Virus record (IMG/VR): IMGVR_UViG_2595698868_000001
Coordinates: 1 to 64,000 of that record
Origin: a virus
Taxonomy: Duplodnaviria; Caudoviricetes
Reading direction: 5' to 3' (one strand)
DNA length: 64,000 nucleotides
A model generated the notes under the pieces. It did not search any database. It was not told the origin of the DNA and was given only the letters and a program-made list of their open reading frames with translations. How positions within the stretch are numbered: the first letter of the stretch is position 1; the number at the start of each line of letters is the position of its first letter. Shown here piece by piece: positions 11,080 to 40,688 of the stretch. The position numbers and the translations under genes are program-made.

Positions 11080-11082
11080 CCC

Positions 11083-11523: not shown

Positions 11524-11539
11524 CCGGAGGAACCCGCCC

Positions 11540-11827: not shown

Positions 11828-11841
11828 CCGGCCCCGTACAA

Positions 11842-11942: not shown

Positions 11943-12132
11943 ATCCGATTTTCTCAGTAGAAACAAGGAGTTAACTTGCGCTTCATCGAACACGTGTTGG
12001 AAGGTTCGGGCCTCATCTTCGCCATCGTGATTCTTTTTCTGCTGCATTAACCTCTTGTTAAGAAATAGGGGTTAGGTCTAGAGGGGTCAGGCGCACACCG
12101 CGCCGGCCCCTCTTTCTGTTGGAGCGCAGACA

Positions 12133-12624
12133 ATGCCCGACTACAAGACGAACGATCCCAAGGGCTACATGGGCGACCCCCGCCGGGGCGCCGCCATGGG
12201 CCGCCCGACCTATGCGCCGGACGCCGCCGGCTGGACCGTGGAAGGCCTGGAAACGGCCGCCGCCCTCGAAGAGGACCGCGCCCGGATCGCCGAAGAGCAA
12301 CGCGAGAACCGCCCCGGCGACGGCTACAAGCGCCAGTGCTGGGAAGCCGCCGCCGCGTCGTTCCGCAAGGAAGCCGAACGCCTCCGTTCGCTCATCCCGG
12401 CCGCCCGCGCCATGCTCGCCGCCTCGCCGAAGATCACCCTTCAACGCGTCCGCCTGGACTCGGGCGGCTACGACTCGAACGGAACCTATTTCGGGCATGA
12501 CCTCCCCCTGTATTGGGCGGCGGACGAGTCCGGCGACTATGACGCGACGTTCCGCGCCGCCGACCGCAACGCGGCGAAGGCCATCGTTCGCGAGACGTAC
12601 CCCGGCGCCCGCTTCCACAACTAG
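12133..12624 (+). CDS. Hypothetical early protein
   Basis: Promoter 12047 and GGAG; RVRLDSGGYD..G.YFG motif. Confidence 0.85.
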   Translation: MPDYKTNDPKGYMGDPRRGAAMGRPTYAPDAAGWTVEGLETAAALEEDRARIAEEQRENRPGDGYKRQCWEAAAASFRKEAERLRSLIPAARAMLAASPKITLQRVRLDSGGYDSNGTYFGHDLPLYWAADESGDYDATFRAADRNAAKAIVRETYPGARFHN

Positions 12625-12701
12625 CTGGCGTTAAGGGGTTGTTAAGAAATAGCCGGTAGGTTCATCCCTACCGGCGCACCCCGCGCCCTGGAGAAAATCG
12701 G

Positions 12702-13550
12702 ATGACCTCGCAACTCTGCATCGCCGACGAAAACGCCGCCCTGGATTTCCTGGCGCGCGCTGTCCCCGCCCTCTGTGACGCCGGCATAATGCCGCCGACG
12801 CTGGATATCCTGGACTCGCTCGCCGCCAATCCGAACGCATACGGCCTTAGCCGCGTCCCGACCCTGGCGCCCCTCGCCGCCGAATGGGCGGGGCCGTATC
12901 AGACGCAAGCGAACGACGGCGAAGGCCCGACCACGGTCCGGGCTCTGATCGTCGCCGCGCTGGGCGCCGATGAGTCCGGCAACTTCGATATCGGGTTCCG
13001 CACCTACGCCGTGAACGACACGGAACACTGGAATCTTGCCGGGACTCCTCTTGAGGGCGTGCCGGCCTATAGCCTGTATTTGATCCGCGAAGGCGAGCAA
13101 ACTTACATGTGCTCGCTCACGCCATCGAGCTACGCCTATGGGATTCAGAACGTGTTCCTCTATCCCGATCAAGAGGGCTTGCCGGCTGTCAATGAGTACG
13201 GGCAAACGGCGGTTGAAGCGTACATGGACGCTGAAAACCCCGAATATGAGGCCGTCGAAGATACCTATTTCGGGTATATGGGCGACCGCGAAGCCCTGGA
13301 CCGCCGCGAAGCCGAAGAGGGCGACGTTTCGGAGCGCCTTAGCTTCGATAAGTCGGTTTTCCGTGTGGACCTCTCCACGCTGGACGGGTTCGCCGCGTCG
13401 CCGGCCAATCCCCGCGAAACGACCGCGTTCGCCGACTTCGAAACCCTCGCCGCCGCCTTCTACAAGGCCGCGTGCGACTCGGCTTGGGAGGACGCGAAGG
13501 AATACGTTAGCGGCAACGCTACGGAACCGCGCATTTTAACGGGTTGTTAA
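12702..13550 (+). CDS. Hypothetical acidic early protein
   Basis: Promoter, hairpin, GGAG. Confidence 0.85.
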   Translation: MTSQLCIADENAALDFLARAVPALCDAGIMPPTLDILDSLAANPNAYGLSRVPTLAPLAAEWAGPYQTQANDGEGPTTVRALIVAALGADESGNFDIGFRTYAVNDTEHWNLAGTPLEGVPAYSLYLIREGEQTYMCSLTPSSYAYGIQNVFLYPDQEGLPAVNEYGQTAVEAYMDAENPEYEAVEDTYFGYMGDREALDRREAEEGDVSERLSFDKSVFRVDLSTLDGFAASPANPRETTAFADFETLAAAFYKAACDSAWEDAKEYVSGNATEPRILTGC

Positions 13551-13613
13551 GAAATAGCCTGTAGGTTCTCCCATGGGCGGCGGATCGGCCGCCGCCCTAC
13601 CGGAGCGCCTAAC

Positions 13614-13826
13614 ATGGCTTTCTCGACCGCCGCCCTTAACGCTCACGTCGCCGAAGTGGCGGAATGTGAGTCCGACCTGAACGAAGCCTTTGAGGCTTTC
13701 GACCGGGGCGAAGCGCCCGACCGTGGCGACTGCGATTATGCGTTTCTGAAGCTGGAAACGGCGGAAATGCACCTCGCGCAATTCCTGGCGCCGGTCCTGG
13801 CGTCGCCGATCTTCGTTCACGCCTAG
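13614..13826 (+). CDS. Hypothetical early protein
   Basis: Promoter, hairpin, GGAG. Confidence 0.75.
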   Translation: MAFSTAALNAHVAEVAECESDLNEAFEAFDRGEAPDRGDCDYAFLKLETAEMHLAQFLAPVLASPIFVHA

Positions 13827-13837
13827 GAGGGCCTGAC

Positions 13838-14053
13838 ATGTCCAAGCGTCCCGATTTCACCGGCCGCCTTCCCGTCCGCGACGACGTGCAAACGGTGACG
13901 TGTCACCGGCCGCCGACGCGCTCGGAAATCAGCTTTGGTCACGGCGCGACGCATTACCGGGATTTCCCGGTTGCGGCCGTGTGCTGGGCCGGAACCCGAT
14001 TCAAGAAAACGTGGTTCGTCGCCGACGACGGACTCCGTTATTACACGTCTTAA
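13838..14053 (+). CDS. Hypothetical early protein
   Basis: AGGAGG RBS. Confidence 0.8.
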   Translation: MSKRPDFTGRLPVRDDVQTVTCHRPPTRSEISFGHGATHYRDFPVAAVCWAGTRFKKTWFVADDGLRYYTS

Positions 14054-14130
14054 CCTCTTGTTAAGAAATAGGCCCTATGGTCTATTTCGAGGGCGGCGGA
14101 TCGGCCGCCGCCCGAACCGGAGTAGACGAG

Positions 14131-14562
14131 ATGTCCGCCCGCTTTCAAACCGCCGCCGCCGCCCGTCAATTCATGCTCGGCGGTAACGCCGTGGTCACGC
14201 TGCAAAGCGAAAAGACCGGCGCGCGCTTCACCTACAAAATCAAGGCCGCCCCTGACGGCGCGGTGTCGTTCGTTAAGCTCCTGACGGGTCAGGACAACGA
14301 ATCGGATTACGCCTATATCGGGTTGATCCGGGGCGCTCAATTCGCCCGGACGGCTAAGGCCCGCGTCACCGCCGACGCCCCTAGCGTCAAGGCCCTGGAA
14401 TGGGCCTGGAAGGCGCTTAGCGCGGATCGCCTCCCCGATACCCTGGCGATCTTCCATGAGGGCCGTTGCGGGCGCTGCAATCGCCTCCTGACGGTCCCCG
14501 AGTCCATCGAGTCGGGCTTCGGTCCCGAATGCGCCGGCCGCGTCCTGCGCCAAGCCGCCTAA
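14131..14562 (+). CDS. DUF6011-like zinc-binding phage protein
   Basis: HEGRCGRCNRLLTVPESIESGFGPEC motif. Confidence 0.8.
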   Translation: MSARFQTAAAARQFMLGGNAVVTLQSEKTGARFTYKIKAAPDGAVSFVKLLTGQDNESDYAYIGLIRGAQFARTAKARVTADAPSVKALEWAWKALSADRLPDTLAIFHEGRCGRCNRLLTVPESIESGFGPECAGRVLRQAA

Positions 14563-14609
14563 CCCTCAACGGGCGGGCCTCGCGCCCGCCCAAGCCCTGG
14601 AGTCCGCTC

Positions 14610-14840
14610 ATGGCCTATTACCCGCCCGTCAAAGGTCAAGTTCACCGTTTTCGCGATTCGGTCTGCCTGTACGTCGGGACCGGCGAGACGGTTTACGTCT
14701 CGGCCGCCGACGCCCGCAAGATCGCCCGCGCCCTGAACCGCGCCGCCAAGTCCTGCACCTCGGAGCCGTTCGCCCAAAGCTCCGGCCTGACGTTCTCGTT
14801 CTCGTTCGCGGACGGCCGCGAAAAAGACCTCCCGCGTTAA
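14610..14840 (+). CDS. Hypothetical early protein
   Basis: Hairpin and GGAG. Confidence 0.75.
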   Translation: MAYYPPVKGQVHRFRDSVCLYVGTGETVYVSAADARKIARALNRAAKSCTSEPFAQSSGLTFSFSFADGREKDLPR

Positions 14841-14918
14841 CTTGTTGTTAAGAAATGCCGTCTAGGGTGACGGCATGGGGCGGCGGATCGGCCGCCGCCC
14901 TAGCTGGAGCGAAAGCCC

Positions 14919-15218
14919 ATGACCAAGACCAAGCGTCCCGCCGGCTACTACTCGAAAGCCGCCCGTGAAGCCCGCGCCCTGGCTCGCCAGCGCCGCGCCG
15001 CCGCCCGCCTCAACTGGTCGGATGAAAAGCGCGTCAAGATGGCCGCCAAGTCCGCCAAGTTCTTCGCCAAACACGCGGCCCGCGCCGCCCTGGCGGGTAA
15101 CGAAAAGGAAACCCGCCGCCTATCGGTTCACATGACCCGATTCGACAACGTGCGCCGCGCGCTCGGCGCCGTCCTGGCGGTCCGCGCCGCTCGCTTCCGC
15201 ATCGAGGCCGCCGCTTAA
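14919..15218 (+). CDS. Basic hypothetical early protein
   Basis: Promoter, hairpin, GGAG. Confidence 0.75.
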   Translation: MTKTKRPAGYYSKAAREARALARQRRAAARLNWSDEKRVKMAAKSAKFFAKHAARAALAGNEKETRRLSVHMTRFDNVRRALGAVLAVRAARFRIEAAA

Positions 15219-15248
15219 GGCGGCCTCACAACCTCGAAAGGACAACCC

Positions 15249-15446
15249 TTGAAACACGCCGCCGACGTTCTCGCTATCGCCGCTGTCTGCGCTTTCCTCG
15301 GCTTCCTCGCGTGGAATAACGCGCATCCGCCCATGATCGCCGTGGGCCTGGACTGTCGGGGCGAAGCCGTCCGCGTCTACGGCGCCGACGACGCCCCGGA
15401 AGCCTCCAAGGTCTGCCGGACCGTGGAAATCCACAAGGCCCCCTAG
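15249..15446 (+). CDS. Small membrane-anchored protein
   Basis: AAAGGA RBS, TTG start, hydrophobic N-terminus. Confidence 0.65.
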   Translation: MKHAADVLAIAAVCAFLGFLAWNNAHPPMIAVGLDCRGEAVRVYGADDAPEASKVCRTVEIHKAP

Positions 15447-15539
15447 AAAGTTCGGCCTCTTAACTTCTTGTTAAGAAATGGCCTCTAGAGTGACTACATG
15501 GGCGGCGGATCGGCCGCCGCCCGAACCGGGAAAACCAAG

Positions 15540-15920
15540 ATGACCCGTCAAGCTAAGCCCTTCGCTCACCTCAAGGCCAAGAGCGAAACCAAGGCGCAAG
15601 CCCTGCTCCGCCTTTCCGAGTTCTCGCGCTTCGGTGCGATGGCGCAACTGTTCATCATCAACGCGCTGAATCACAAGTTCGGCGACCTGGAATATGTCGG
15701 TCGCGAGACGAACACGGACAAGCTCAAGCAAGCCCTTAAGTTCGCGCCGTCTATGACTATCGAGGCCATCGAGAAAGAGGCCGCCGGAGTCGCTGGCGCT
15801 GGCCTGGAAGGGGTCCGCGAGTCCTTCGCCCAGAAAGGCGCAAGCGGCTTCATCAACCCCGATGCGTGGCATGGGGTTGCGGTGGAAATCAAAACCGCCC
15901 TCGACGCCGCCAAGGCCTAA
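15540..15920 (+). CDS. Hypothetical early protein
   Basis: Promoter and hairpin. Confidence 0.8.
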   Translation: MTRQAKPFAHLKAKSETKAQALLRLSEFSRFGAMAQLFIINALNHKFGDLEYVGRETNTDKLKQALKFAPSMTIEAIEKEAAGVAGAGLEGVRESFAQKGASGFINPDAWHGVAVEIKTALDAAKA

Positions 15921-15994
15921 CCCCTGACCCTGTAGCGTAACGGGGCGGCGGATCGGCCGCCGCCCCTAACCCCCTAGGACTGGAGTCCTTCGCA

Positions 15995-16189
15995 ATGTCC
16001 CGTTCGTTCCGTCACTCCCCCGCCTTCGAAGATACCCGCGCCGAATTCGCGGCCCGGAAAAACGCCCGTGAAGCCCGCAAGGCGGAATTCCGTGCGCTGG
16101 GCTTCGAAGAGGCCGAAGCCCTGGCCGTGCGTCCCCTGCATCGCCCCTACAAGGGCCGGAATCGGTCGGTCCTGGACATCGACGCCTAG
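15995..16189 (+). CDS. Hypothetical early protein
   Basis: Hairpin and GGAG. Confidence 0.7.
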   Translation: MSRSFRHSPAFEDTRAEFAARKNAREARKAEFRALGFEEAEALAVRPLHRPYKGRNRSVLDIDA

Positions 16190-16278
16190 GCCCGGAAACG
16201 GCCCGCCTAGAGCCCCTACAGAAGGCCCGCCCTAATCGGCGGGCCTTTACTGTTTGGTAAGACCTTCCCCGCTAGAGT

Positions 16279-16497
16279 GTGCGTATGGACAAGCCCGCCC
16301 TCTTCGAAGTGATCACGCGCCACGCCGACGGATCGGCTACCCGTGGGATCGTCCCCGCCGCTCTGGTCAAGACGGCTTACGCGCAAGCCTTGCGCAAGGC
16401 CTGGAAAGCCAAGGCGGGCGACCTCGTGTCCGTCTACCCCTACGGGGTGGCCCTGCCGAACACGCCCGCCAATGTCGAAAGACTTTTCACGCTTTAA
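16279..16497 (+). CDS. Hypothetical early protein
   Basis: Follows degenerate promoter 16246; possibly leaderless. Confidence 0.6.
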   Translation: MRMDKPALFEVITRHADGSATRGIVPAALVKTAYAQALRKAWKAKAGDLVSVYPYGVALPNTPANVERLFTL

Positions 16498-16558
16498 CCT
16501 CTTGTTAAGAAATACCCTCTAGGGTAGGCACATGGGCAAGGCCCTAGGAGACAAAGCG

Positions 16559-16768
16559 ATGACCCTGCATCACACCCTTATGACCGCTCTGGACACCGCC
16601 CAGATGAACGGCGCGCAAGCCGATCCGCTTCACGCGGACATCCGCCGCGCCCTGCGCCTCGCCCAGATGGCGGGCGTTACCCTGGACACGGCCGAAGAGG
16701 TCGCCGCCGCCGTCCTGCGCATGAAGGTTGCGCAGCAACAGGCCCGCCGCCGCTCGCGCCGGGCCTAA
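16559..16768 (+). CDS. Hypothetical early protein
   Basis: Promoter and AGGAG. Confidence 0.75.
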   Translation: MTLHHTLMTALDTAQMNGAQADPLHADIRRALRLAQMAGVTLDTAEEVAAAVLRMKVAQQQARRRSRRA

Positions 16769-16869
16769 GGAAGAAAGTTGAAGGCGTTTACCTCTTGTTA
16801 AGAAATAGGGGGTATGGTCTTCACATGGGCGGCGGACTTCCCCGCCGCCCTCACCTCGGAGCCCCTGCC

Positions 16870-17082
16870 ATGTTCCCCCGTAACGTCGCGATCGCCGAAG
16901 CCGCTCAGTTCTCGCAAGTGTCGATGGCTGATTACCGTGAGCACGTCGCCGAAGAGCGTCACGCGATGCGCGTGAAGCTGGCGAAGCAAGCCAAGCTTAA
17001 GGCGGACATCAAGGCGGGCGCGTTCGCCTTCGCCCTGGCCTTCGTGGCTGCTGGCGTGGTCCTCGCTCTGGGCGTGTTCTAG
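16870..17082 (+). CDS. Small protein with C-terminal transmembrane helix
   Basis: Promoter, hairpin, GGAG. Confidence 0.75.
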   Translation: MFPRNVAIAEAAQFSQVSMADYREHVAEERHAMRVKLAKQAKLKADIKAGAFAFALAFVAAGVVLALGVF

Positions 17083-17403
17083 AGGGAGTGGGTCGCCCTC
17101 GGCGAGAGTCGAGGGTACCTGAAAGAATCCATCCGGACCCCTTGACAAAATCGGGGGGCCGGGGGAGGGTCGAGTTTCAAAATGGGACACCCAGGGACCC
17201 AAGGCCGGGGTGGGTTGTTAACCATTTTTCCGGGGCGCCTAGTGTAGTGACCGCGTTTTGATGTGCGGGTCAATGGCGTCAGAGATTTCGAAAAATTTCT
17301 CAGAGGAGTAGGGGACCCAGGCCAGCGGCTTTTGGATTCGAAAACACGAATCTGGCTGACCGAAATTTTATTTCTGTAAAATAGGGGTCAATAAGCTCAA
17401 ACG

Positions 17404-17440
17404 AAAAAGCCCGGCGGTGATCGGCACCGCCGGGCTTTCG
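17404..17440. terminator. Bidirectional intrinsic terminator
   Basis: AAAAAGCCCGGCGGTG-ATCGG-CACCGCCGGGCTTT. Confidence 0.8.
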
Positions 17441-17494
17441 TGAACGAAACTCGCGCTCCGCTCAGCCTGAACAAGACCATAAACCACAGCCCGA

Positions 17495-18460
17495 TCAGGC
17501 CGTCAAGCGAGCCCCGGTAAGACCCGACAGGCGCACTCCGGCGCGACCGCTCATCACGCCCAGGGCGACCAGCCATTCGTAGCGCGTACGCTGCACCGGA
17601 ATGTGCTCGACGTAGCCCAGGTCATCCACCTGGACCGAACCGTTCTGGAGTCCGGTGACGCCGTGCTTGCCGATATTCAGTACGTAGGCATCCGTTTCCA
17701 AGATGGCTGGCTTACCTTCCAGGCGGTAATCGACGATCACGGTGACCGTGTTGTCCTCGTCGGCGGTGGTGTAGCGATAGGTGCCCTTAGTGCGCTTGAG
17801 CAGCCGACGCTTCTTCATGGCGTCGCGCATTTCGACCGAAACGAGAAGGTAGTTGGGATCGTCGACCATGGCGATTGCTTGGTCCAGGACAGTACGGCTG
17901 AGCACGCCGTTGACTTGGAAGTGCTGACCGCCCACGAAGCGCTGACGCAGCCCATCGGCGACGCGCGGATCGACGTCCGAGTCACCGTTCACTAGTGAGT
18001 TGGTCAGGTAGTAGGCCTTCTCACGCAGGTACATGCGGCGCTGCGCCGGCACGATCGCTTCGCCGTGAGTCTTGATGAGGGCCTTGTCGACGTCGCAGTC
18101 GCCGCCGGCGATTTTCAGGACTTCAACAGTGGGGTTGACCACGCCGACTCCGCTATTCATGGTCTCGGGGCGGCCCTTGAAGGCGATTCCAGGCAGCCAG
18201 CCCTCTTGGATATAGGTGAAGCTACCTCCCGCAATGTCGAGCCAGGGCAGCGCGCGCATCAGTTCGGATTCGGACAGATATTGGACGGCTTCAGCGTAGA
18301 GGTCGCCCGGCTTATCCTTAGCGGACCAGGGCGTACCGGCTTGCGCCGTGATGTTGGTGGTATCCATGGCCGGCGAAGCGGCAGCTTGGGTCGCAACGTT
18401 GAGCGCGGGAACGGCGACGAACAGGCCCAGCAGGGACTTAAAGAAGTTACGACGTTGCAC
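17495..18460 (-). CDS. Major capsid protein paralogue with N-terminal twin-arginine (Tat)-like signal peptide
   Basis: GTG 18460 with AGGAG RBS; MQRRNFFKSLLGLFVAVPALNVATQAAA; the body aligns by eye with MCP 39756-40688 along its length. Confidence 0.85.
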   Translation of the reverse strand: MQRRNFFKSLLGLFVAVPALNVATQAAASPAMDTTNITAQAGTPWSAKDKPGDLYAEAVQYLSESELMRALPWLDIAGGSFTYIQEGWLPGIAFKGRPETMNSGVGVVNPTVEVLKIAGGDCDVDKALIKTHGEAIVPAQRRMYLREKAYYLTNSLVNGDSDVDPRVADGLRQRFVGGQHFQVNGVLSRTVLDQAIAMVDDPNYLLVSVEMRDAMKKRRLLKRTKGTYRYTTADEDNTVTVIVDYRLEGKPAILETDAYVLNIGKHGVTGLQNGSVQVDDLGYVEHIPVQRTRYEWLVALGVMSGRAGVRLSGLTGARLTA

Positions 18461-18533
18461 CTGAATCTCCTGATTGATGGAACGGCTCAGGTTGTATCGC
18501 GTGCCAGTATGGCTGTCCATACATCGCGAGTGA

Positions 18534-19175
18534 TTAAGGAGTCCGATAGATCGCGGTCTTCTCGACATCCACGCGATAGCCCGGCATCGGGCCGATCTTC
18601 CGCTTCCCATCCATACGGATGCCGCCAAAGCGGTCACCGCGCGTGCTGTCGTACGGCGCCGGCGTCTCCGCCGCACCAACGCCCACTTCGTACCAGCCCT
18701 GGTCGGCCGTCTCGACCAGCAGGGTCGCGTGAGCCAACCCGATGCCGGGGCTCCACATCATCAGGATCATTCGGTCGCCGCCCTGCCCGGCCTTGTGGAG
18801 CCGCTCGGCCAGGGTGAGCGCGTAATCCTCGCAGTCGCCGCACAGGGTGTCATTGTCCCAGAAGTCCGCGTTGCCGATGCGCAGCTTGTCATCGCGGTAC
18901 TCGAACTTCTTGCGCATCTCCAGGTCGATCGAGATCACATCGGTCGATGCGAGCGCCTTGCCCGGCCCGCCGGCGCAGATCAACGCCTTCGGCGCACGTC
19001 GACAGAAGTACGCTAGCTCGTAAATGTTGATCGCTGCAACTCGCGCGGGCGAAATGGTCGAATTGACCGCGCCGCCGCGTACCGCGCCAATTAAAGGGAT
19101 TTCAGGGCACTGCGACGCGGCCGGCGAGCAGGACAGCAGGGCAAGGCAGGCGAGGAGTCCGGCGAGAATACGCAT
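18534..19175 (-). CDS. Transglutaminase-like cysteine protease (BTLCP/LapG-like) lipoprotein
   Basis: Lipobox LLSC; Y.DD....G.ADFW, GDCEDYAL and HATLLV motifs. Confidence 0.75.
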   Translation of the reverse strand: MRILAGLLACLALLSCSPAASQCPEIPLIGAVRGGAVNSTISPARVAAINIYELAYFCRRAPKALICAGGPGKALASTDVISIDLEMRKKFEYRDDKLRIGNADFWDNDTLCGDCEDYALTLAERLHKAGQGGDRMILMMWSPGIGLAHATLLVETADQGWYEVGVGAAETPAPYDSTRGDRFGGIRMDGKRKIGPMPGYRVDVEKTAIYRTP

Positions 19176-19240
19176 GACAGGAAGTCCGGCAGGAGAATGC
19201 CAGGAATCCTGTCACCATCAAACGTGACTCGCAAGTAATG

Positions 19241-19314
19241 AAAAACCCCGCCGAGACGCGGACGCCATCCCAGCGGGGTTCCTTCCCATCCTTGACTGGA
19301 GAGGGTCAAGAACG
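19241..19314 (-). ncRNA. Candidate sRNA with anti-Shine-Dalgarno loop CCUCUCCA
   Basis: TTGACG-N17-TAGAAC promoter (19320-19348), hairpin, intrinsic terminator. Confidence 0.55.
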
Positions 19315-19359
19315 CCGCCGTTCTAGGCAACGCCTTGAGAAACGTCAAGCTGCGAAAGG

Positions 19360-19432
19360 AAAAGCCCGCCAGCGCGACATGGGGGGAGCGCTGACGGGCT
19401 AGGCGGTCCAGCGCGGTGGGGCCGACGCCGGA
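19360..19432 (-). ncRNA. Candidate sRNA with C-rich loop
   Basis: TTGACA-N19-TATAGA (weak spacing); 12-bp hairpin with loop UCCCCCCAUGUC and a U-tail. Confidence 0.45.
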
Positions 19433-19492
19433 GACTTCTATAGAACAGGCGTCGAGATGCCTGTCAACATGCGACCATGTCATCGCGCATAG

Positions 19493-19660
19493 AAAAAGCC
19501 CGGCGCTCTGGGTTTGCGCGCCGGGCCTCAACACTTGCTGCACAGGGAAGGCCCCTAGGTCTTAGGCCACCCTGAAGTCCTCTGGTGAAATCAAGAGCTA
19601 AGCGCGCATGACAGCCTCCTGTGACGAGTTTCTGGGAAATCCCTCAGGTTTCCTGTGTGA
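19493..19660 (-). ncRNA. Candidate sRNA / minigene transcript (Met-Arg-Ala-stop, 19598-19609)
   Basis: TTGACA-N17-TAGCGT promoter (19668-19696), AGGAGG RBS, terminator at 19493-19527. Confidence 0.5.
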
Positions 19661-19813
19661 AGTCTTCACGCTAGAGATGCCCTTAGAAGGTGTCAACCAG
19701 AAAAGCACGTGGGGTTCAAAAATCCTGGCATTTCAACCTCAGCGTTAACATGTCTTATTTCGTGGCGCTCGATTTTTAGCTTGACAGCGTGACTGGCACG
19801 TTCCCGAGCAACG

Positions 19814-19846
19814 TGCCAGTTTTCTTGACATGCCCTGTTAACCATG
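19814..19846 (+). promoter_or_regulatory. TGCCAG-N5-TTGACA promoter with TTAACCAT site, upstream of portal
   Basis: Same motif at 30406, 38510, 41861, 42951, 58709. Confidence 0.65.
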
Positions 19847-19956
19847 TCATCCGTGGCGTCGATCAGGGCCGCGTGCCCTGGTTCCCTCCTTCGTCATAAG
19901 CCTTGGGCGGGGTCCGTGAGTAGAGTTTTGGACCTCGCCCACTTTTTCAAAAGAAC

Positions 19957-21942
19957 ATGGCTGGTCTTTCACCCAACTCCGCGAACATTCGACGCACGAA
20001 GCGTGGCGCTCAACAGTTCACGCACCTCGTGGTCCATCCGGAGTACGAGTATTATCGTCCGGATTGGGCGAAGATTCGCGACGCCATCGCCGGCGAACGC
20101 GAGATCAAGGCTCAGGGTGTCAAGTACCTGAAGGCCCCGAAGGGCTTTGACGACGAAGACTACGCGAACTACCTCGATCGCGCCGCCTTCTACAACATGA
20201 CGTCGCAGACGCAGGCCGGCATGGTCGGTCAGATTTTCCGCCGTCCGCCCGTCATCCGTAACCTCCCCAACACGGGCGCGATCACGGGCCGTGATGCCGA
20301 AGGTGGTGTCCAGGTCGTGGCGCCGGCGTCGATCGGCAAGCTACTCACTCAGCTTCAACGCTTCGCCAAGGACGGCACGTCCCACCAGGGTTTCGCCAAG
20401 ACGGTCGCGCTGGAGCAGGTGGCGATGGGCCGTTTCGGCGCCCTGGTCGATGTGGCTCCAAGCAGCGATCCCACCGCGCCGGCGAAGTCCTACACGGTCG
20501 GCTACGCCGCCGAGAACATCGTCGACTGGACCGTAGAGGACGTCGACGGTTTCTACGTCCCGACCCGCATTCTGCTGCGTGAGTTCGAGCGCGTGGATGA
20601 GCACGCCACGCCGTCGCAGCAAAATCCCTGGATCGGACGCGAAGGCAGCGAGACTGCCCAGCGCACGAGTGGCGGTCGCCGCGCCGGCCTCGCGGAACGC
20701 CAGGGCTCGGCCCGTGCTGACGCGCTGGCTCGCCCGTCGCGCTTCACCAGCAGCTACACCTTCCGCACGATCTACCGCGAACTGATCCTGGAACTCCAGA
20801 AGGACGGCAGCCGGGTCTACAAGCAGTTCGTCTACGTCGAGGACCCGCTGGGCCAAGCCCGCGACGTCTACACTCCCATGGTGCGCGGGCGCACCCTCCC
20901 CTTCATCCCCTTCGTGTTCTTCGGCTCCATGTCGAACGCGGCCGACTGCGAAAAGCCGCCGCTGCTCGACATCGTCGAATTGAACCTGAAGCACTATCGC
21001 ACCTACGCCGAACTGGAGCACGGCCGCTTCTTCACGGCGCTGCCCACCTACTATGCACCCGAACTCGACGACTCCGACGCCTCGGAATATCACATTGGTC
21101 CGGGCCGGGTCTGGGTTGTCGACAAGGAGAGCGGCATCCCCGGCATCATCGAGTTCAAGGGCGAGGGTCTGAAGACCCTGGAGCGCGCCCTGAACGAGAA
21201 GGAGCAGCAGATCGCCGCGATCGGCGGACGCCTGATGCCCGGCATGTCCAAGTCGGTCTCCGAGTCGGACAACCAATCGGCGCTGCGTGAAGCCAACGAG
21301 CAGTCGCTGCTTCTGAACGTCATCATGGCGCTCGAAGACGGCATGACCTCGGTCGTTCGTTACTGGCTAATGTTCCGCGACATCCCGCTGACCGACACCG
21401 CGACGCTCCGCTACGAGATCGACGCGACCTTCCTGACGACGGCCCTGGACGCCCGCGCCCTGCGCGCGATCCAGCAACTCTACGAAGGTGGCCTGCTGCC
21501 GATCGACGCTCTGTACGAGAACTTCGTCAAGAACGGCATCATCCCATCGACCCAGACGCTGGAAGAATTCACGATCAAGATGAACGATCCGAAGTCGTTC
21601 ATTGGTCAGCCGGACGCGATCGCGATGCGTCGTGGCTACGTCAGCCGCCAGCAGGAACTGGATCAGCAGCGCGCGGCCCGCGACGCCGACTTCCAGCAGC
21701 AGGAACTGGAGCAGGCCGAGCGCCATCTGGAGATCGACGAGGAGAAGCTGCGCATCTCCGCCAAGGTCGGTTCGACCAGCGTGGCCGCGAGCCGCAAGTT
21801 GGGCGATCCCGAGCAAGCCAAGCCGTCCAAGGCCGAGCAGGCTCAGATCGACGCCCAGCAGAAGCAGGCCGCCGCCAAGCCTGTCACGCCCACCCCCGGC
21901 ACCGTCCAACGCGGCCGTCCGCCGCAAAATGGAGCGAGCTAA
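19957..21942 (+). CDS. Portal protein (DUF4055-type)
   Basis: HPEY..W..IRD...GE, Y..YL.RA.FYN, IPFVFFG, KPPLLDI..LN..HY motifs. Confidence 0.9.
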   Translation: MAGLSPNSANIRRTKRGAQQFTHLVVHPEYEYYRPDWAKIRDAIAGEREIKAQGVKYLKAPKGFDDEDYANYLDRAAFYNMTSQTQAGMVGQIFRRPPVIRNLPNTGAITGRDAEGGVQVVAPASIGKLLTQLQRFAKDGTSHQGFAKTVALEQVAMGRFGALVDVAPSSDPTAPAKSYTVGYAAENIVDWTVEDVDGFYVPTRILLREFERVDEHATPSQQNPWIGREGSETAQRTSGGRRAGLAERQGSARADALARPSRFTSSYTFRTIYRELILELQKDGSRVYKQFVYVEDPLGQARDVYTPMVRGRTLPFIPFVFFGSMSNAADCEKPPLLDIVELNLKHYRTYAELEHGRFFTALPTYYAPELDDSDASEYHIGPGRVWVVDKESGIPGIIEFKGEGLKTLERALNEKEQQIAAIGGRLMPGMSKSVSESDNQSALREANEQSLLLNVIMALEDGMTSVVRYWLMFRDIPLTDTATLRYEIDATFLTTALDARALRAIQQLYEGGLLPIDALYENFVKNGIIPSTQTLEEFTIKMNDPKSFIGQPDAIAMRRGYVSRQQELDQQRAARDADFQQQELEQAERHLEIDEEKLRISAKVGSTSVAASRKLGDPEQAKPSKAEQAQIDAQQKQAAAKPVTPTPGTVQRGRPPQNGAS

Positions 21943-22337
21943 TGATTCTCCCGACTCACGATGAGGCCATTTTCCGTCCGGATCGTCAGGAGACGATCGC
22001 TGCTGCTCATGAACTTCTGGCGGGTGACCAGACGGTGGTCGAACTCATCTACCGTAAGGTCGCTGACTTGTGGACGGATACGAAGCAGGCTGCGCATGCC
22101 TTCAGTGATGCCGAGTATCGACGCGCGCGTGCTCGGGCTGCCCTGGAAGAAGCACAGGCAGAATACGACGAAGCGTCCAAGGCATTTTCCGCAGCCAAGG
22201 ATGCTTCGATCCAAACCATGCGTGACGCCGGCGTCATCATGCACCTCGCGCGCATCGCCTCTCTGGGCGGCAGCGAAGTTTCCTGGATGGTCTACAACCG
22301 CGAGTTCCGCCCTGATCCGGTGAAGGACGAAGCCTGA
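21942..22337 (+). CDS. Hypothetical protein
   Basis: TAATG overlap with portal. Confidence 0.75.
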   Translation: MILPTHDEAIFRPDRQETIAAAHELLAGDQTVVELIYRKVADLWTDTKQAAHAFSDAEYRRARARAALEEAQAEYDEASKAFSAAKDASIQTMRDAGVIMHLARIASLGGSEVSWMVYNREFRPDPVKDEA

Positions 22338-22458
22338 TGGCCCTCACCCTCAACGACGCAGCGTCCATGTCGCCCGGCGGCCAGCCGGGCAGCAAGACCT
22401 GCAAGCCCATGCCCGGCGGCAAGCCGCCGATGAAGCGCTCCAAGCCTGGAAAGAAGAA

Positions 22459-22755
22459 GTGACCGACAAGACCGAAACCGCCGAGACGACTGAAGTCGTC
22501 CTCACGCCGCCCGAACTGCTCGCCCTGGAGTGGCTGAAGACGTTCCACAAGGACACCGGCGCCGAGTGGTCGACCGAGGCGCAATGGCGCGCTTACGCCG
22601 ACCGCCCGACCATCACTCCGGACGCCAACCGCGCGCGCGGCTTCCGCATCCCGCCGATGCTGGAGAAGGGCGTCATCGAGATGACCACCGCCAACATCCA
22701 CATCGCCCGGTACGGCGTGCAGCCCGATCCGGTCGCGCTGTACCGTCCGGTCTAG
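22459..22755 (+). CDS. Hypothetical protein
   Basis: ORF in co-directional cluster. Confidence 0.7.
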   Translation: MTDKTETAETTEVVLTPPELLALEWLKTFHKDTGAEWSTEAQWRAYADRPTITPDANRARGFRIPPMLEKGVIEMTTANIHIARYGVQPDPVALYRPV

Positions 22756-22777
22756 TTTCAGTACCCAGCGTATCGCC

Positions 22778-22975
22778 ATGTCACGTCGTTACTCCGATCT
22801 CGATGACCTGATCCAAGACCTGGATTCGAACGGGTCACTATCCGACGACCCGTTCGGCATCGCCGGCTTCGACGACGATGATCTTGCCCTGCTCGGCCAC
22901 GTGTCCCCCGACGCGCCACGCCGAGCCCCCAAGAAGCCCGCCGCTCCTAAGCGCGGGCGTCCGAAGAAGGACTAG
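22778..22975 (+). CDS. Small acidic protein with AT-hook-like KRGRPK tail
   Basis: Translation. Confidence 0.65.
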   Translation: MSRRYSDLDDLIQDLDSNGSLSDDPFGIAGFDDDDLALLGHVSPDAPRRAPKKPAAPKRGRPKKD

Positions 22976-22980
22976 CCCCG

Positions 22981-23319
22981 ATGCACTATGCTGTGGCTGA
23001 AGCCGACTACGATCGCTGGATCGAAACCAAGGTCGCCGAGGCCCGCGCTGAACTGGAACTCGGTCTGGGCATCCCCTCCGAGGTGGTGGAAGCCTACTTC
23101 GCCGGCCGCCGCGCCAAGGCGGACCACCAGACGGCGATCGATCTGGCTACGCAGAAGCGCACCGACGACTTGCGCGCCATCGCGCTGCGTCAGGCCGTCG
23201 ACGCCCAGGCCGGCAAGTTCGAACGCGACGGAGACGCGCTGGACGCCTCCTACGTCATCCAATCCGCCCGACAGTTCTACGCCTTCCTGTCCGGCGATAC
23301 CCCGACCTCTGAAGGCTAA
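22981..23319 (+). CDS. Protein with N-terminal PaaA2/StbC-like antitoxin motif
   Basis: YDRWIETKVAEA...IPSEVVEA resembles YD.WFRAKV..A...IPH.EV. Confidence 0.55.
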   Translation: MHYAVAEADYDRWIETKVAEARAELELGLGIPSEVVEAYFAGRRAKADHQTAIDLATQKRTDDLRAIALRQAVDAQAGKFERDGDALDASYVIQSARQFYAFLSGDTPTSEG

Positions 23320-23758
23320 AGGAGCTTCCCGTGGAAGAGTTCTTCAACAACGCTGTGACCCAGGTCAAGACCGTCGTCAACCAGACCAAGACGGCCGCGA
23401 TCATCATCTTCGTCGCCGGCCTGCTGACCGGCTGCGTCTTCGGCTAAGCCGATGGCCCGAACCGACGAACGTCGCCGAGATTTCGGAGCCGGCGCCATCT
23501 TCATGGCGGTGATCGAGTTCCTCTGCGACGTCGTCGGTTCACTCGCCGAGTCCTGCTGGGGTGATTGATGGACTTTGAGTACCGGGGCCGCCGGCCCGAA
23601 GACGCGTTCATGTCGTGGGTCTGGCATCATCCTCGTGTGGCGTTGGCTGTGGCCTTCGGCATCATGAGCGGTATCCCGGCGCTCGTAGGGTTCCTGATGG
23701 GGCTCGCACTATGAGCGGCTTTCCCTTTCCCCTGCCGATCCTCCTCGTGAGGATCAAC

Positions 23759-23992
23759 ATGTACGAGACCGACTTCGCCGAAGTGCTGGAGGGCACCCTG
23801 GTTGAGACGGTCGAAGCGTTCGACACGGAAGCTCTCCGAGACTCCTACGAGGCGGTGATGATCGCCTGGAGCCATTACGCCGCGCACGACGACAGCGTGA
23901 TGAAGGAAGATACCCGGCGCCGCCTTGTCGACTGGATCAACCTGACTGTCTGCCCGCGCATCGCACGGGGGCGACTGCCCATTTGGCTGTGA
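23759..23992 (+). CDS. Hypothetical protein
   Basis: GAGGA RBS. Confidence 0.65.
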   Translation: MYETDFAEVLEGTLVETVEAFDTEALRDSYEAVMIAWSHYAAHDDSVMKEDTRRRLVDWINLTVCPRIARGRLPIWL

Positions 23993-23995
23993 CGA

Positions 23996-25048
23996 ATGAC
24001 CGACTCCTACAACTCCACGCCCGGCGCGGATTTCTACGAAGACCATCCTATCCTGGGCGGCGGCGTCCCTGAACCGGCATCCACCGTTCATTATGTGTCG
24101 ACGCCCAACGCGGACGCGTTTTGCAAGACGACCGGGACACTCGTGTCGAACGAAGCCGCCGGCGACGCCTGGGCGGCGGCCCATTCCATCATCGACAGCT
24201 TCGTGAGTCAGGACACGACGACCACGGTCGTCAACGAATATGTGCCGGCCATGCTGCGTACGGACGAAGCGGTCATCCCGCTGTCGCGCGAGCGCACGAT
24301 CCTCCTGGAATCCACTTCCGACCTCATGAAGGAGCGTGACGCAATGCGCGCGGCCTCCAACGAGTCCTCGGCCGAAATCGCACGGCTTGAAGCGCGGCTC
24401 GTCGACCTCGTGGACAAGAACGCCCGCTACAGCCACGCGCTGCGTGCCTCCACAAAGGAGTTGAATGAAGCGAAGACCACGTTGGCGGAGCGCGACGCGG
24501 CATACCACGCCGCTTTGTTCGACGCTCGCGACGCCCGCTTCACCCTGGGCGCCCTGCGACGCACGCTGACCGAAAAGGAGAACGAGCAGTTCGAAGAAGG
24601 CCTGCGACATCTCCACGTCGCGGAAGCCAACGAGCGCGACATCGAAGATGCGGAGCGTGAGAACGCACATCTTCAGACCGAGATGTCCAAGCAGCGTGCG
24701 GAATTCACGGCGCGTTACAAGGCGACCAATCAGCAAATCGACGCCCTGCTGACTACGATCGCTAACGCCGGAGTCGACCACGCCACGCTCGTCGCTGACG
24801 TCCACACGCAGATCGGCATTATGTTGGAGGCGGGCAAGATCGAAAGCGACTATCACCGCAACCGCAACGAGATGGAGCGCAACAAGCAGACCATCTTCCG
24901 CGCCAAGCAGATCGCTGCCGAACATGCCCTTTCCGGCCGCGCCCTGATCTGCGCTGCCTTCGCGCGCTCTCCCGAACTGCCGAGCAAGCCGAAGCTGACG
25001 GTCGACGAGAAGCTGGCCCTAGCCAACCTTCAGTCCATGGAGGAATAA
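23996..25048 (+). CDS. Coiled-coil hypothetical protein
   Basis: Long ORF, heptad-like composition. Confidence 0.8.
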   Translation: MTDSYNSTPGADFYEDHPILGGGVPEPASTVHYVSTPNADAFCKTTGTLVSNEAAGDAWAAAHSIIDSFVSQDTTTTVVNEYVPAMLRTDEAVIPLSRERTILLESTSDLMKERDAMRAASNESSAEIARLEARLVDLVDKNARYSHALRASTKELNEAKTTLAERDAAYHAALFDARDARFTLGALRRTLTEKENEQFEEGLRHLHVAEANERDIEDAERENAHLQTEMSKQRAEFTARYKATNQQIDALLTTIANAGVDHATLVADVHTQIGIMLEAGKIESDYHRNRNEMERNKQTIFRAKQIAAEHALSGRALICAAFARSPELPSKPKLTVDEKLALANLQSMEE

Positions 25049-39755: not shown

Positions 39756-40688
39756 ATGGCTGCCTTGACTCTGCTCGAAGCCTCTGATCTGGCGATGGGC
39801 AACGATGAGGTGAAGCGTTCGGCAATCATCGAACTCTTCGCCTACCCGGACCTGCTGAAGGTGCTGCCGTTCATGGACGTGCCCGGCGGTTCGTACACCT
39901 ACACGCAAGAAGGCGCCCTGCCCGGCGTGGCCTTCCGTGGCTTCAACGAAGCCTACACCAACGGCGTCGGCGTCGTGAACTCGCAAGTCGAAGTTCTGAA
40001 GATCGTCGGTGGCGACCTGGACGTCGACAAGGCCCTCATCAAGACCCACGGCGCGGACATCCGTACCCGTCAGGAAAAGATGAAGGTCAAGGCTCTGTCG
40101 CTGTTCCTGGCCGGCAAGATCATCAACGGTGACTCCGAGCAGGACCCGCGCGAATTCGACGGTCTGCGCAAGCGCATCGTCGGCTCGCAGCGTATCCCGG
40201 CCGGCAACACCAACGGTGGCGACGCGCTGTCGCTGCAAATCCTGGACGAAGCCATCGACGCCGTCGAAGGTGCGACCCACCTCGTCATGTCGAAGCGCAT
40301 GCGCAACCTGCTGTCGGCCGCCAGCCGTCAGACCTCGGTCGCGGGCTTCATCACCTGGGACAAGACCGAGTTCGGCGAGCGCATCGCCTACTACAACGAC
40401 CTGCCCATCTTGGTCACCGACTACGACGACAAGAACGTCCAAGTCATCGACTTCAACGAAGCCTGCCCCGGCGGCGGTACCACCGGTACCTCGATCTACG
40501 TCCTGAACATCGGCGACAGCGGCGTGATCGGCCTCCAGAACGGCGTCATGGAAGTTGACGACCTCGGTCAGGTCAACGACAAGCCGGTGTACCGCACCCG
40601 CATCGAATGGCTGATCAGCCTCGCCGTCATGAGCGGCCGTGCTGCGGCCCGCGTGTGGGGCATCAAGAAGGCTCCGGTCGTCGCGTAA
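39756..40688 (+). CDS. Major capsid protein (HK97 fold, phiCbK-type)
   Basis: LPFMDV.G.SY.Y..E..LP.VAFR..NE, GGDLDVD, EFDGL..R; strong codon bias; position in head operon. Confidence 0.9.
   Translation: MAALTLLEASDLAMGNDEVKRSAIIELFAYPDLLKVLPFMDVPGGSYTYTQEGALPGVAFRGFNEAYTNGVGVVNSQVEVLKIVGGDLDVDKALIKTHGADIRTRQEKMKVKALSLFLAGKIINGDSEQDPREFDGLRKRIVGSQRIPAGNTNGGDALSLQILDEAIDAVEGATHLVMSKRMRNLLSAASRQTSVAGFITWDKTEFGERIAYYNDLPILVTDYDDKNVQVIDFNEACPGGGTTGTSIYVLNIGDSGVIGLQNGVMEVDDLGQVNDKPVYRTRIEWLISLAVMSGRAAARVWGIKKAPVVA

What the first reader, a model, noticed from the sequence alone, without database searches (positions are those of the whole stretch)
17495..18460. Second major-capsid gene fused to a twin-arginine export signal, far from the head operon
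Seen: clear paralogy with the MCP. LPWLDIAGGSFTYIQEGWLPGIAFKG aligns with LPFMDVPGGSYTYTQEGALPGVAFRG; EVLKI.GGD.DVDKALIKTHG and RTR.EWL..L.VMSGRA are shared. The N-arm is replaced by QRRNFFK, a hydrophobic stretch and an AxA site. It lies on the opposite strand with its own terminator. Established: S/T-RR-x-F-L-K marks Tat substrates, which are exported folded. Inference: an HK97-fold protein repurposed for the envelope, e.g. superinfection exclusion, a decoy for capsid-sensing immunity, or a membrane anchor for prohead assembly. I know no described function for this architecture.
Basis: partly seen in the sequence, partly recalled or inferred. Interest (0 to 1): 0.85.

Follow-up and report, generated by a model that had tools for sequence, protein, structure and literature searches.

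The report
Capsid-protein copy carrying a Tat export signal
A giant Caulobacter-type phage carries a diverged second copy of its head-shell protein that begins with a signal for export out of the cytoplasm, and related phages keep the same odd combination, so a capsid fold seems to have been put to a new, still unknown use in the cell envelope.

Summary
Window 17495-18460 (- strand) is an intact 321-aa gene with a GTG start 6 nt after AGGAG. It is 43% identical over 287 aa to the phage's major capsid protein (MCP, 39756-40688; E 7e-64). It begins MQRRNFFK, followed by 24 uncharged residues and AxA-type sites. The signal is conserved. 14 of 20 rows of this paralog group carry a twin-arginine N-terminus, including genes of the cultured phages Kabachok, Papperlapapp and BL57. 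CcrRogue gp023, annotated 'putative TAT signal protein', keeps the signal but only a fragment of the capsid fold.

The window is the first 64 kb of a 280-kb phiCbK-like jumbo phage. In the ~92%-identical phage CcrPW the gene is missing as a clean single-gene indel, so it is accessory and not needed for head assembly. It is probably co-transcribed with an upstream signal-peptide BTLCP peptidase gene.

Best reading: an HK97-fold protein exported by the host Tat pathway that acts in the envelope. Its role there is unknown. Export itself is inferred, not shown.

The duplication was noted in one sentence in 2012 (Gill et al., Colossus gene 36). I found no printed description of the Tat-capsid combination. 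'Far from the head operon' is only half right, because the portal gene lies 1.5 kb away. Interest is moderate to high.

The parts
17495..18460 (-). Coding sequence of the Tat-signal MCP paralog (321 aa, GTG start, TGA stop at 17497-17495)
   Evidence: ORF list and translation. tblastn to the main MCP gives 43% identity over 287 aa, E 7e-64. phrog_212 2.9e-51. NF045672 78.1 bits. AlphaFold2 model pLDDT 83.9, HK97 fold by Foldseek.
18368..18460 (-). Predicted twin-arginine signal peptide (residues 1-31: MQRRNFFK, h-region, AxA-type sites after residue 26, 28 or 31)
   Evidence: Read from the sequence. The same architecture is present in 15 other relatives' N-termini. This protein itself has no match to TIGR01409 or PF10518. 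pLDDT is 51-57 over residues 1-30.
18467..18471 (-). Shine-Dalgarno sequence AGGAG, 6 nt before the GTG
   Evidence: Read from the sequence.
17404..17435 (-). Intrinsic terminator: 11-bp G+C-rich stem, 5-nt loop, T5. It lies 60 nt after the stop and is shared with the upstream gene.
   Evidence: Read from the sequence. The scan reports its core at 17429-17412. An identical element directly follows the peptidase gene in CcrPW.
18534..19175 (-). Upstream co-oriented gene: BTLCP (Peptidase_C93) cysteine peptidase with an N-terminal signal peptide and a possible lipobox (LLSC)
   Evidence: PF06035 at 31.2 bits against a cut-off of 27. phrog_12671 2.9e-97. Translation. 96.6% identical to CcrPW gp037c.
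17490..18543 (.). Single-gene indel relative to Caulobacter phage CcrPW: 1054 bp here against 23 bp there
   Evidence: blastn of window 12000-24000 against CcrPW 9000-30000. Flanks are 92% and 90% identical and end at 17489 and 18544.
39756..40688 (+). Main major capsid protein gene (310 aa), the paralog's source family
   Evidence: PF20911 GP7. 99% identical to CcrPW gp084, annotated 'major capsid protein'. Model pLDDT 96.3.
19957..21942 (+). Portal protein gene, transcribed divergently from the peptidase/Tat-MCP pair
   Evidence: DUF4055 7.3e-23. phrog_145 portal 2.6e-106.

Best explanation
The gene encodes a diverged duplicate of the phage's HK97-fold major capsid protein that has been turned into an exported accessory protein.

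Proposed mechanism:
- The precursor is translated from the GTG at 18460, probably on one transcript with the upstream signal-peptide BTLCP peptidase gene.
- It folds in the cytoplasm.
- Its N-terminal twin-arginine signal (MQRRNFFK, a mildly hydrophobic h-region, an AxA-type site) is recognised by the host's TatABC translocase. The phage encodes no TatA.
- Signal peptidase I then cuts after residue 26, 28 or 31 and releases a capsid-fold domain of about 290 aa (about 32 kDa) into the periplasm.
- There it acts on the envelope during infection, not in the virion.

My odds:
- Real, expressed gene and MCP paralog: 0.95.
- Exported by Tat: about 0.7.
- Accessory protein acting at the envelope and not a virion part: about 0.6.
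- Specific role in superinfection exclusion, receptor or surface modification, or countering an envelope-located defence: about 0.25, pure inference.

Shown here: the gene, the paralogy, the fold, conservation of the signal, dispensability, and purifying selection in one ortholog pair. Inferred: export, cleavage, co-transcription and function.
For: Paralogy and fold.

Signal conservation. A twin-arginine N-terminus is present in P0005 and P0006 (41% identity, 100% coverage), in Kabachok_02020 and its 90%-identical Papperlapapp ortholog, in BL57_025 and in P0013, P0014, P0021, P0031, P0039 (KR), P0041, P0068 and P0075. That is 11 of the 150 listed representatives including the query's own record. 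My regex also flagged 6 rows (P0007, P0008, P0025, P0061, P0063, P0077), which I dropped by eye because the RR/KR lies in the mature N-arm and there is no N-terminal extension. All 16 signal-bearing proteins tabulated have 16-39 uncharged residues after the motif and -3/-1 sites.

Profile support in relatives only. TIGR01409: P0127 at 20.9 against a cut-off of 16.7, P0013 at 16.3, Kabachok at 14.3. PF10518: P0031 at 20.6 against a cut-off of 22.7.

The signal outlives the fold. CcrRogue gp023 (annotated 'putative TAT signal protein') and its 99.5%-identical BL64 copy keep the signal but match MCPs only over residues 34-112.

Relaxed shell constraints. The E-loop is 35 residues in 4 of 4 true MCPs. 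It is 9-20 residues in 8 of 21 paralog rows and 3 residues in Rogue gp023.

Still under selection. dN/dS between Kabachok and Papperlapapp is 0.29 overall and 0.21 for the mature part.

Dispensable. The gene is a clean indel against CcrPW. phiCbK-type records have one MCP place only.

Envelope neighbours:
- Window: the BTLCP peptidase with a signal peptide.
- Kabachok: a 2-TM protein overlapping downstream and another Tat-signal protein two genes upstream.
- Rogue: a 27-aa hydrophobic peptide upstream and a lipoprotein (LAAC) downstream.

This phage lineage uses Tat signals elsewhere. phrog_11563 homologs annotated 'putative TAT signal protein' occur in 28 Caulobacter phage records. The window's genome has two more such ORFs.

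Host machinery. The TatA family is found in the Caulobacter vibrioides control genome and not in the phage.
Against: - No Tat-signal HMM (TIGR01409, PF10518) matches the window's own protein, even at E<=10.
- No SignalP or TatP was available, so the signal call rests on motif reading and on conservation.
- There are no expression or localisation data. No RNA run holding the stretch was listed.
- 6 of 20 paralog rows lack a signal: CcrPW's unannotated copy, CcrBL9 gp461, P0015, P0017, P0018 and P0094. Export is therefore not universal in the group. Some of these could be miscalled starts.
- Capsid proteins tend to oligomerise in the cytoplasm (general knowledge), which could hinder Tat export.
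- BL57's neighbours show no export signals, and the peptidase adjacency is not seen in Kabachok, BL57 or Rogue, so the 'envelope module' argument is loose.
- The single-clade status of the paralogs has only 14% support.
Confidence: 0.6

Rival explanations
1. It is a minor virion protein, for example a vertex or cap subunit of the prolate head analogous to T4 gp24 (analogy recalled). On this view the N-terminal segment is a maturation propeptide that only resembles a Tat signal.
For: It is an MCP paralog with an intact HK97 core, E-loop and spine helix. It lies next to the portal gene. Older work reported a third 33-kDa head protein in phiCbK (passage in PMC3556154).
Against: In phiCbK that 33-kDa band was identified as a processed form of the main MCP gp68 (PMC3556154), and phiCbK has no second copy. 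CcrPW has a 99%-identical main MCP and lacks the gene. The RR motif, h-region and AxA site are conserved across relatives 31-48% identical while the residues of the signal itself drift (signal dN/dS 2.2 against 0.21 for the mature part). That is how signal peptides evolve, not propeptides that dock on a protease or scaffold (inference). The E-loop has been lost repeatedly in relatives.
Confidence: 0.08
2. It is a decaying relic of a gene duplication with no function. The Tat-like start is incidental.
For: Paralogs evolve much faster than the true MCPs: end branches of 0.5-1.8 against 0.002-0.14. Some copies are truncated or unannotated (CcrRogue gp023, CcrBL9 gp461, the CcrPW copy). The gene is dispensable in CcrPW.
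Against: The 321-codon frame is intact and has a good ribosome-binding site. The model is confident (pLDDT 83.9, and 90 or more for 182 residues). dN/dS is 0.29 in the one ortholog pair with DNA available. The signal architecture is kept in 14 of 20 rows, and even on the truncated Rogue protein.
Confidence: 0.1
3. It acts in the cytoplasm or at the inner face of the membrane. It could be a decoy for capsid-sensing immunity, or an oligomerising Tat substrate that clogs the host translocase as a take-over device. On this view transport is not the point.
For: It keeps most of the surface of a capsid protein (43% identity, same fold). Capsid proteins are known triggers of bacterial immune systems (recalled; the only trace in my calls is a title in a reference list shown). 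Oligomerising cargo could plausibly jam Tat (inference).
Against: Conserved signal-peptidase sites in 16 of 16 signal-bearing proteins point to completed export. A decoy needs no signal peptide. Rogue gp023 keeps the signal but only a fragment of the capsid fold. Neighbouring genes encode exported or membrane proteins.
Confidence: 0.1

Closest known systems
Colossus gene 36, as described by Gill et al. 2012 (BMC Genomics 13:542, PMC3556154)
   Same: The paper says that phiCbK gp68 (MCP) is duplicated in phage Colossus. One duplicate, gene 36, is 'significantly diverged and translocated ~21 kb upstream' of MCP gene 81. The portal is gp38 (passages read). The window has the same layout: the paralog ends at 18460, the portal gene starts at 19957, and the MCP gene starts at 39756, 21.3 kb away. 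The genome is about 280 kb. The printed remark therefore most likely concerns this gene or its ortholog in a near-identical phage.
   Different: The main text has no occurrence of 'tat' or 'twin'. The export signal, its conservation and its implication are not discussed there. The deposited record could not be read.
CcrRogue gp023 'putative TAT signal protein' (JX100814.1 12224-12799), and Kabachok_02020 / Papperlapapp_03650 annotated 'major capsid protein'
   Same: They belong to the same paralog group and carry the same type of signal: MNRRNFL... in Rogue, MNRRAFL... in Kabachok.
   Different: Each record names only one half of the architecture, either the Tat signal or the capsid homology. 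Rogue's protein is 191 aa and keeps only part of the fold. Kabachok's has a shortened E-loop and lies elsewhere in the genome, beside other genes.
Major capsid proteins of the epsilon15 gp7 / BPP-1 type (PF20911, NF045672; PDB 3j40, 3j4u, 8cjz)
   Same: Sequence family and HK97-like fold.
   Different: It has an N-terminal export signal and has lost the first N-arm helix. The A-domain segment is 15 residues shorter. It is dispensable and fast-evolving.
Encapsulins (family 2A: 8wol, 8t6r, 6x8m)
   Same: These are the best Foldseek matches, E about 1e-13, TM 0.58-0.66. Like this protein, they are HK97-fold proteins used outside a virion.
   Different: The true MCP of the same phage gives the same top hits, so the resemblance belongs to the family and not to the paralog. 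No cargo gene or bacterial operon context was seen. Encapsulins are cytoplasmic, to my knowledge (recalled).
Bacterial Tat substrates (consensus S/T-R-R-x-F-L-K)
   Same: Tripartite signal with a twin arginine, a weakly hydrophobic h-region and an AxA site.
   Different: The passenger is a viral capsid fold with no cofactor-binding family match. The window protein itself has no HMM-level match.

Membership tests
HK97-fold major capsid protein, epsilon15 gp7-like (phrog_212 / NF045672 / PF20911) | Significant match to the family profiles | tested here: met
   phrog_212 2.9e-51, residues 59-320. NF045672 at 78.1 bits against a cut-off of 75. PF20911 itself is not matched even at E<=10, although the main MCP matches it.
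HK97-fold major capsid protein, epsilon15 gp7-like (phrog_212 / NF045672 / PF20911) | HK97 fold: N-arm, E-loop, spine helix, P and A domains | tested here: met
   AlphaFold2 pLDDT 83.9, pTM 0.78. 370 PDB chains match at E<=0.001, and all those listed are capsids or encapsulins. The first N-arm helix is not homologous to the MCP's, and the A-domain segment is shorter.
HK97-fold major capsid protein, epsilon15 gp7-like (phrog_212 / NF045672 / PF20911) | Builds the virion shell | not testable with these tools
   Indirect evidence against: the gene is absent from CcrPW, and phiCbK virion proteomics list a single MCP (PMC3556154).
Twin-arginine (Tat) exported protein | Twin-arginine motif close to the consensus, near the N-terminus | tested here: met
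   Q-R-R-N-F-F-K at residues 2-8. The consensus itself is recalled from general knowledge.
Twin-arginine (Tat) exported protein | Uncharged h-region followed by a signal-peptidase -3/-1 site | tested here: met
   24 uncharged residues, mean hydropathy 1.34. Sites TQA|A, AAA|S and SPA|M.
Twin-arginine (Tat) exported protein | Match to the curated Tat-signal profiles (TIGR01409, PF10518) | tested here: not met
   No match for the window protein at E<=10. Among relatives, P0127 passes (20.9 against 16.7), P0013 scores 16.3, Kabachok 14.3 and P0031 20.6 against 22.7. These profiles are 21-29 positions long and weak.
Twin-arginine (Tat) exported protein | Tat-dependent export and cleavage in the host | not testable with these tools
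   The only related results are that the TatA family is present in the Caulobacter vibrioides control genome and absent from the phage.
Encapsulin | HK97-fold shell protein encoded with a cargo protein in a cellular genome | tested here: not met
   The gene lies in a phage genome between a peptidase gene and a terminator, with no cargo-type neighbour. The encapsulin top hits are shared by the true MCP.
T4 gp24-type vertex paralog of an MCP | MCP paralog that is a required structural part of the head | tested here: inconclusive
   The paralogy is met. The requirement is contradicted indirectly by the CcrPW indel and by phages of this subfamily with one MCP place only. There is no virion proteomics for this phage.

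The most novel reading that the evidence does not exclude
Exported capsid-fold proteins form a functional class of their own. After Tat export the HK97-fold domain would self-associate in the periplasm into capsomer-like rings or a lattice. Such a structure could plug or shield an envelope structure, for example a pilus or flagellar entry portal used by these phages, and so block superinfection or an envelope-based defence. Alternatively the protein could carry a signal-less partner out by Tat 'hitchhiking'. A possible second, independent gain of a Tat signal on an unrelated MCP branch (P0127; the AU test rejects a common clade, p 0.0024) would then mark convergent evolution of this use.
Probability: 0.12. 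Interest if true: 0.85.

Novelty: new variant of a known kind. Interest (0 to 1): 0.62.

Why it matters
HK97-fold proteins are known as virion shells and as cytoplasmic encapsulins. A conserved, selected lineage of them that carries export signals would be a third use of the fold, in the cell envelope. It would also be a rare case of a phage structural gene recruited as an accessory host-interaction gene.

The gene sits in a genetically tractable system: Caulobacter with phiCbK-type phages. Natural presence/absence pairs exist, such as this phage against CcrPW, so the function can be tested directly. The result also shows that existing annotations of these genes ('major capsid protein', 'TAT signal protein', 'hypothetical protein') each capture only half of the architecture.

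Tried and rejected
- Encapsulin affinity. The top Foldseek hits were family 2 encapsulins, but the true MCP gives the same hits. I rejected this as a property of the whole family.
- Genomic context of the metagenomic Tat-MCPs. Viral-contig scans with P0001, P0005, P0013, P0021 and P0127 gave one distant locus (L016, not examined) or nothing. An alignment query had no stretch conserved enough to search with.
- Metagenome contigs with P0021 found nothing. With alignment A4 it returned 80 loci. In 79 of them with a scorable match, none had a Tat-like upstream extension by my regex, and those I read by eye were ordinary MCPs.
- Expression. No RNA holder was listed. Two wastewater DNA runs hold small shares, 0.11-0.12, and I did not lay reads on them (after a busy answer).
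- Earlier findings.
- The deposited record of the phage named in the 2012 paper is not in the collection.
- Rfam on 16000-21000 gave no match. The sigma-70 promoter scan on 16500-20200 found none.
- The ESM Atlas returned only MCP clusters.
- Literature. Searches for 'twin-arginine' + 'major capsid protein' + 'phage' (13 papers, none relevant by title or abstract), 'HK97' / 'Tat signal' / 'periplasm' and Colossus / Caulobacter / MCP / paralog found no description of an exported capsid paralog. In PMC10070969, PMC7824862 and PMC13236601 I read only the matching passages, and none mention it.
- P0127 as a solid second origin. It is a singleton. Its relatives of about 310 aa lack the extension. 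I keep it only as a lead.
Full report
WHAT IS THERE

The window is the first 64 kb of G000, a 279,967-bp virus record estimated 96% complete. On the - strand a frame is open from 18679 to 17495. The product is 321 aa.

It begins M-Q-R-R-N-F-F-K. Then come 24 uncharged residues of modest hydrophobicity, ending in TQA|A, AAA|S and SPA|M (-3/-1) sites. A G+C-rich hairpin with a T5 run lies 60 nt after the stop codon.

IT IS A PARALOG OF THE HEAD PROTEIN

- tblastn against the window finds one other place, 39828-40685 on the + strand: 43% identity over 287 aa, E 7e-64. The next hits have E of 7 or more. The whole genome has exactly these two places.
- The partner ORF (39756-40688) is the true MCP. 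It matches PF20911 and is 99% identical to CcrPW gp084, annotated 'major capsid protein'.
- The paralog matches phrog_212 'major head protein' (2.9e-51) and NF045672 (78.1 bits against a cut-off of 75). It does not match Pfam PF20911.
- An AlphaFold2 model built on an 84-sequence alignment has pLDDT 83.9 and pTM 0.78, with residues 1-30 at 51-57. Foldseek finds only HK97-fold capsids and encapsulins.
- The top hits are family 2 encapsulins, but the true MCP model (pLDDT 96.3) gives the same top hits. That resemblance says nothing special about the paralog.
- By profile search the solved relatives are 8cjz, BPP-1 (3j4u) and epsilon15 gp7 (3j40).
- Compared with the true MCP, the paralog keeps the second N-arm helix, a full 35-residue E-loop, the spine helix and the P and A domains. 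Its first N-arm helix is replaced by unrelated sequence, and one A-domain segment is 36 residues instead of 51.

THE EXPORT SIGNAL IS CONSERVED, WHICH IS THE KEY RESULT

Closest relatives. P0005 and P0006 (41% identity, full coverage) begin MHTHRRNLFKS followed by an h-region and AFA|R.

Exhaustive profile-free search. Of 1.84 billion representatives, 490 scored at E<=0.001. Among the 150 listed, 11 carry a twin-arginine (one KR) N-terminus: the query's own record, P0006, P0013, P0014, P0021, P0031, P0039, P0041, P0068, P0075 and P0127. Six further regex hits were dropped by eye, because the RR/KR sits in the mature N-arm of proteins that have no N-terminal extension.

Cultured phages.
- Brevundimonas phage Kabachok gene 02020 is annotated 'major capsid protein' and starts MNRRAFLYATASAASLIAAGVAEAA.
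- Its Papperlapapp ortholog is 90% identical.
- Caulobacter phage BL57 gene 025 starts MNRRTFFRS.
- CcrRogue gp023, and a 99.5%-identical BL64 copy, start MNRRNFL and are annotated 'putative TAT signal protein'. Their MCP homology is reduced to residues 34-112.

All 16 signal-bearing proteins tabulated have 16-39 uncharged residues after the motif and -3/-1 sites.

Curated Tat profiles are short and weak. The window's own protein is not matched. P0127 passes TIGR01409, while P0013, Kabachok and P0031 fall just below the thresholds.

Between Kabachok and Papperlapapp, dN/dS is 0.21 for the mature part. The signal region changes residues freely (10 nonsynonymous against 2 synonymous differences) but keeps RR and its hydrophobic character. 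That is how signal peptides usually behave (general knowledge).

EVOLUTION

In a FastTree of 95 rows, 12 of 13 Tat rows fall in one group of 18 (support 95). That group is sister to the true MCPs of Dolichocephalovirinae phages (support 99).

A better-modelled IQ-TREE of 50 rows gives three results:
- One strongly supported branch (99) separates 24 other MCPs from the true MCPs of this phage subfamily plus all paralogs.
- The 20 paralog rows (14 with a signal, 6 without) are one side of a branch, but with only 14% support. A single duplication is therefore possible but not shown.
- P0127 sits among the other MCPs. The AU test rejects joining it to the paralogs (p 0.0024; the group was named after seeing the tree). 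However, it is a singleton whose relatives of about 310 aa lack the extension, so I count this only as a lead towards a second origin.

Paralog branches are long (0.5-1.8) compared with 0.002-0.14 for the true MCPs. The E-loop is 35 residues in 4 of 4 true MCPs. It is cut to 9-20 residues in 8 of 21 paralog rows and to 3 in Rogue gp023. I read this as release from shell-building constraints (inference).

THE GENE IS ACCESSORY

Window 12000-17489 aligns to CcrPW at 92% identity, and 18544-19744 at 90%. The 1054 bp in between, which is exactly this gene and its leader, correspond to 23 bp in CcrPW.

The upstream gene is kept in CcrPW (gp037c, 96.6% amino-acid identity), and there it is followed directly by the same terminator. 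So in the window's phage the two genes probably form one transcription unit (inference).

CcrPW, a plaque-forming phage with a 99%-identical MCP, does without this gene. It has a different, unannotated and signal-less paralog elsewhere. phiCbK and most relatives show one MCP place only. phiCbK virion proteomics found both capsid bands to be gp68 (PMC3556154, passage).

NEIGHBOURS

- Window. The upstream gene (18534-19175) encodes a BTLCP/Peptidase_C93 protein (31.2 bits against a cut-off of 27; phrog_12671). Its N-terminal signal ends in LLSC, a possible lipobox. The family also rings in the Caulobacter vibrioides control genome.
- Kabachok. The Tat-MCP overlaps a downstream 75-aa two-helix membrane protein. 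Two genes upstream lies another Tat-signal protein weakly related to phrog_11563.
- Rogue. The gene lies between a 27-aa hydrophobic peptide and a lipoprotein.
- BL57. The neighbours show no signals.

phrog_11563 proteins, annotated 'putative TAT signal protein', occur in 28 Caulobacter phage records. The window's genome has one at 201832-202431 and a further Tat-like ORF at 270557-271207. The phage has no TatA, and the Caulobacter control genome does.

MECHANISM

Most likely (about 0.7) the precursor is exported folded by the host Tat system and cleaved. This releases an HK97-fold domain of about 32 kDa (pI 6.1, against 5.0 for the MCP) into the periplasm. There it acts together with other phage-encoded envelope proteins.

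What it does there is not shown by anything I could run. Superinfection exclusion, surface or receptor modification, or countering an envelope defence are plausible for a fast-evolving, dispensable gene. I put these together at about 0.25.

Rivals:
- Virion vertex protein: 0.08.
- Decaying relic: 0.10.
- Cytoplasmic decoy or Tat jamming: 0.10.

WHAT IS KNOWN

Gill et al. 2012 state that phiCbK gp68 is duplicated in phage Colossus, and that gene 36 is diverged and lies about 21 kb upstream of MCP gene 81. The portal is gp38. The window shows the same layout.

The main text never mentions Tat (0 occurrences). Supplements were closed, and the record was not available. GenBank records label relatives either as 'TAT signal protein' or as 'major capsid protein', never both. 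Three literature searches and passages of three further papers gave no description of an exported capsid paralog.

VERDICT

This is a new variant of a known kind, and its function is open. Interest 0.62.

Noticed in passing
window 2687-16508, + strand: The pattern TTAA-N7-TTAA occurs 12 times (mostly TTAACCTCTTGTTAA), all on the + strand, against 0.13 expected from shuffles. The sites lie between the small ORFs of the region that corresponds to CcrPW's terminal repeat, and they stop just before the peptidase/Tat-MCP pair. They look like CtrA-type boxes (recalled). A paper on CtrA control of such phages turned up in a search listing (PMC9437464; not read).
   Followed up: partly
G000:C1:201832-202431 (+) and G000:C1:270557-271207 (-): Two more ORFs of this phage start with Tat-type signals (MNRREILLGAAAMAGASAVGLPALA and MINRRVLLTAMGAAASMAAIGS). 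The first belongs to phrog_11563, whose homologs in 28 Caulobacter phage records are often annotated 'putative TAT signal protein'. The second has no Pfam or PHROG match.
   Followed up: partly
window 18534-19175 (-); CcrPW gp037c: A phage-encoded BTLCP (Peptidase_C93) cysteine peptidase with a signal peptide and a possible lipobox. The CcrPW annotation starts the ortholog 64 codons later and so omits the signal. The same Pfam family is found in the Caulobacter vibrioides control genome.
   Followed up: partly
MH588545.1 (CcrPW) about 216754-217620, locus L014 2754-3620: An unannotated 288-codon ORF encodes a further diverged MCP paralog without a signal peptide and with a shortened E-loop. 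It lies between gp294 and gp295.
   Followed up: partly
window 19745-19772 against CcrPW 19882-21749: Between the peptidase gene and the portal gene, CcrPW has about 1.9 kb (gp038-gp041, including a gene annotated 'tail fiber protein') that the window's phage lacks. This junction after the terminal repeat looks like an indel hot spot.
   Followed up: no
window 19240-19700 (- strand): The 780-bp gap between the peptidase and portal genes holds several terminator-like hairpins with T-runs on the - strand, for example at 19262-19247. There is no Rfam match.
   Followed up: no
window 59240-62908 (+): A cluster of 15 tRNA genes (Trp, Gly x2, Glu, Asp, Pro x3, Lys, Leu x3, His, Ala, Ser).
   Followed up: no
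window 48840-57092 (+): A very long ORF of 2750 codons. I did not examine it.
   Followed up: no
window 30500-31669 (+) and 33926-35137 (+): Genes matching PHROGs for deoxyribonucleoside 5'-monophosphate phosphatase (phrog_318, 7.3e-93) and DHH phosphoesterase (phrog_4771, 4e-106). They lie between the portal and MCP genes.
   Followed up: no
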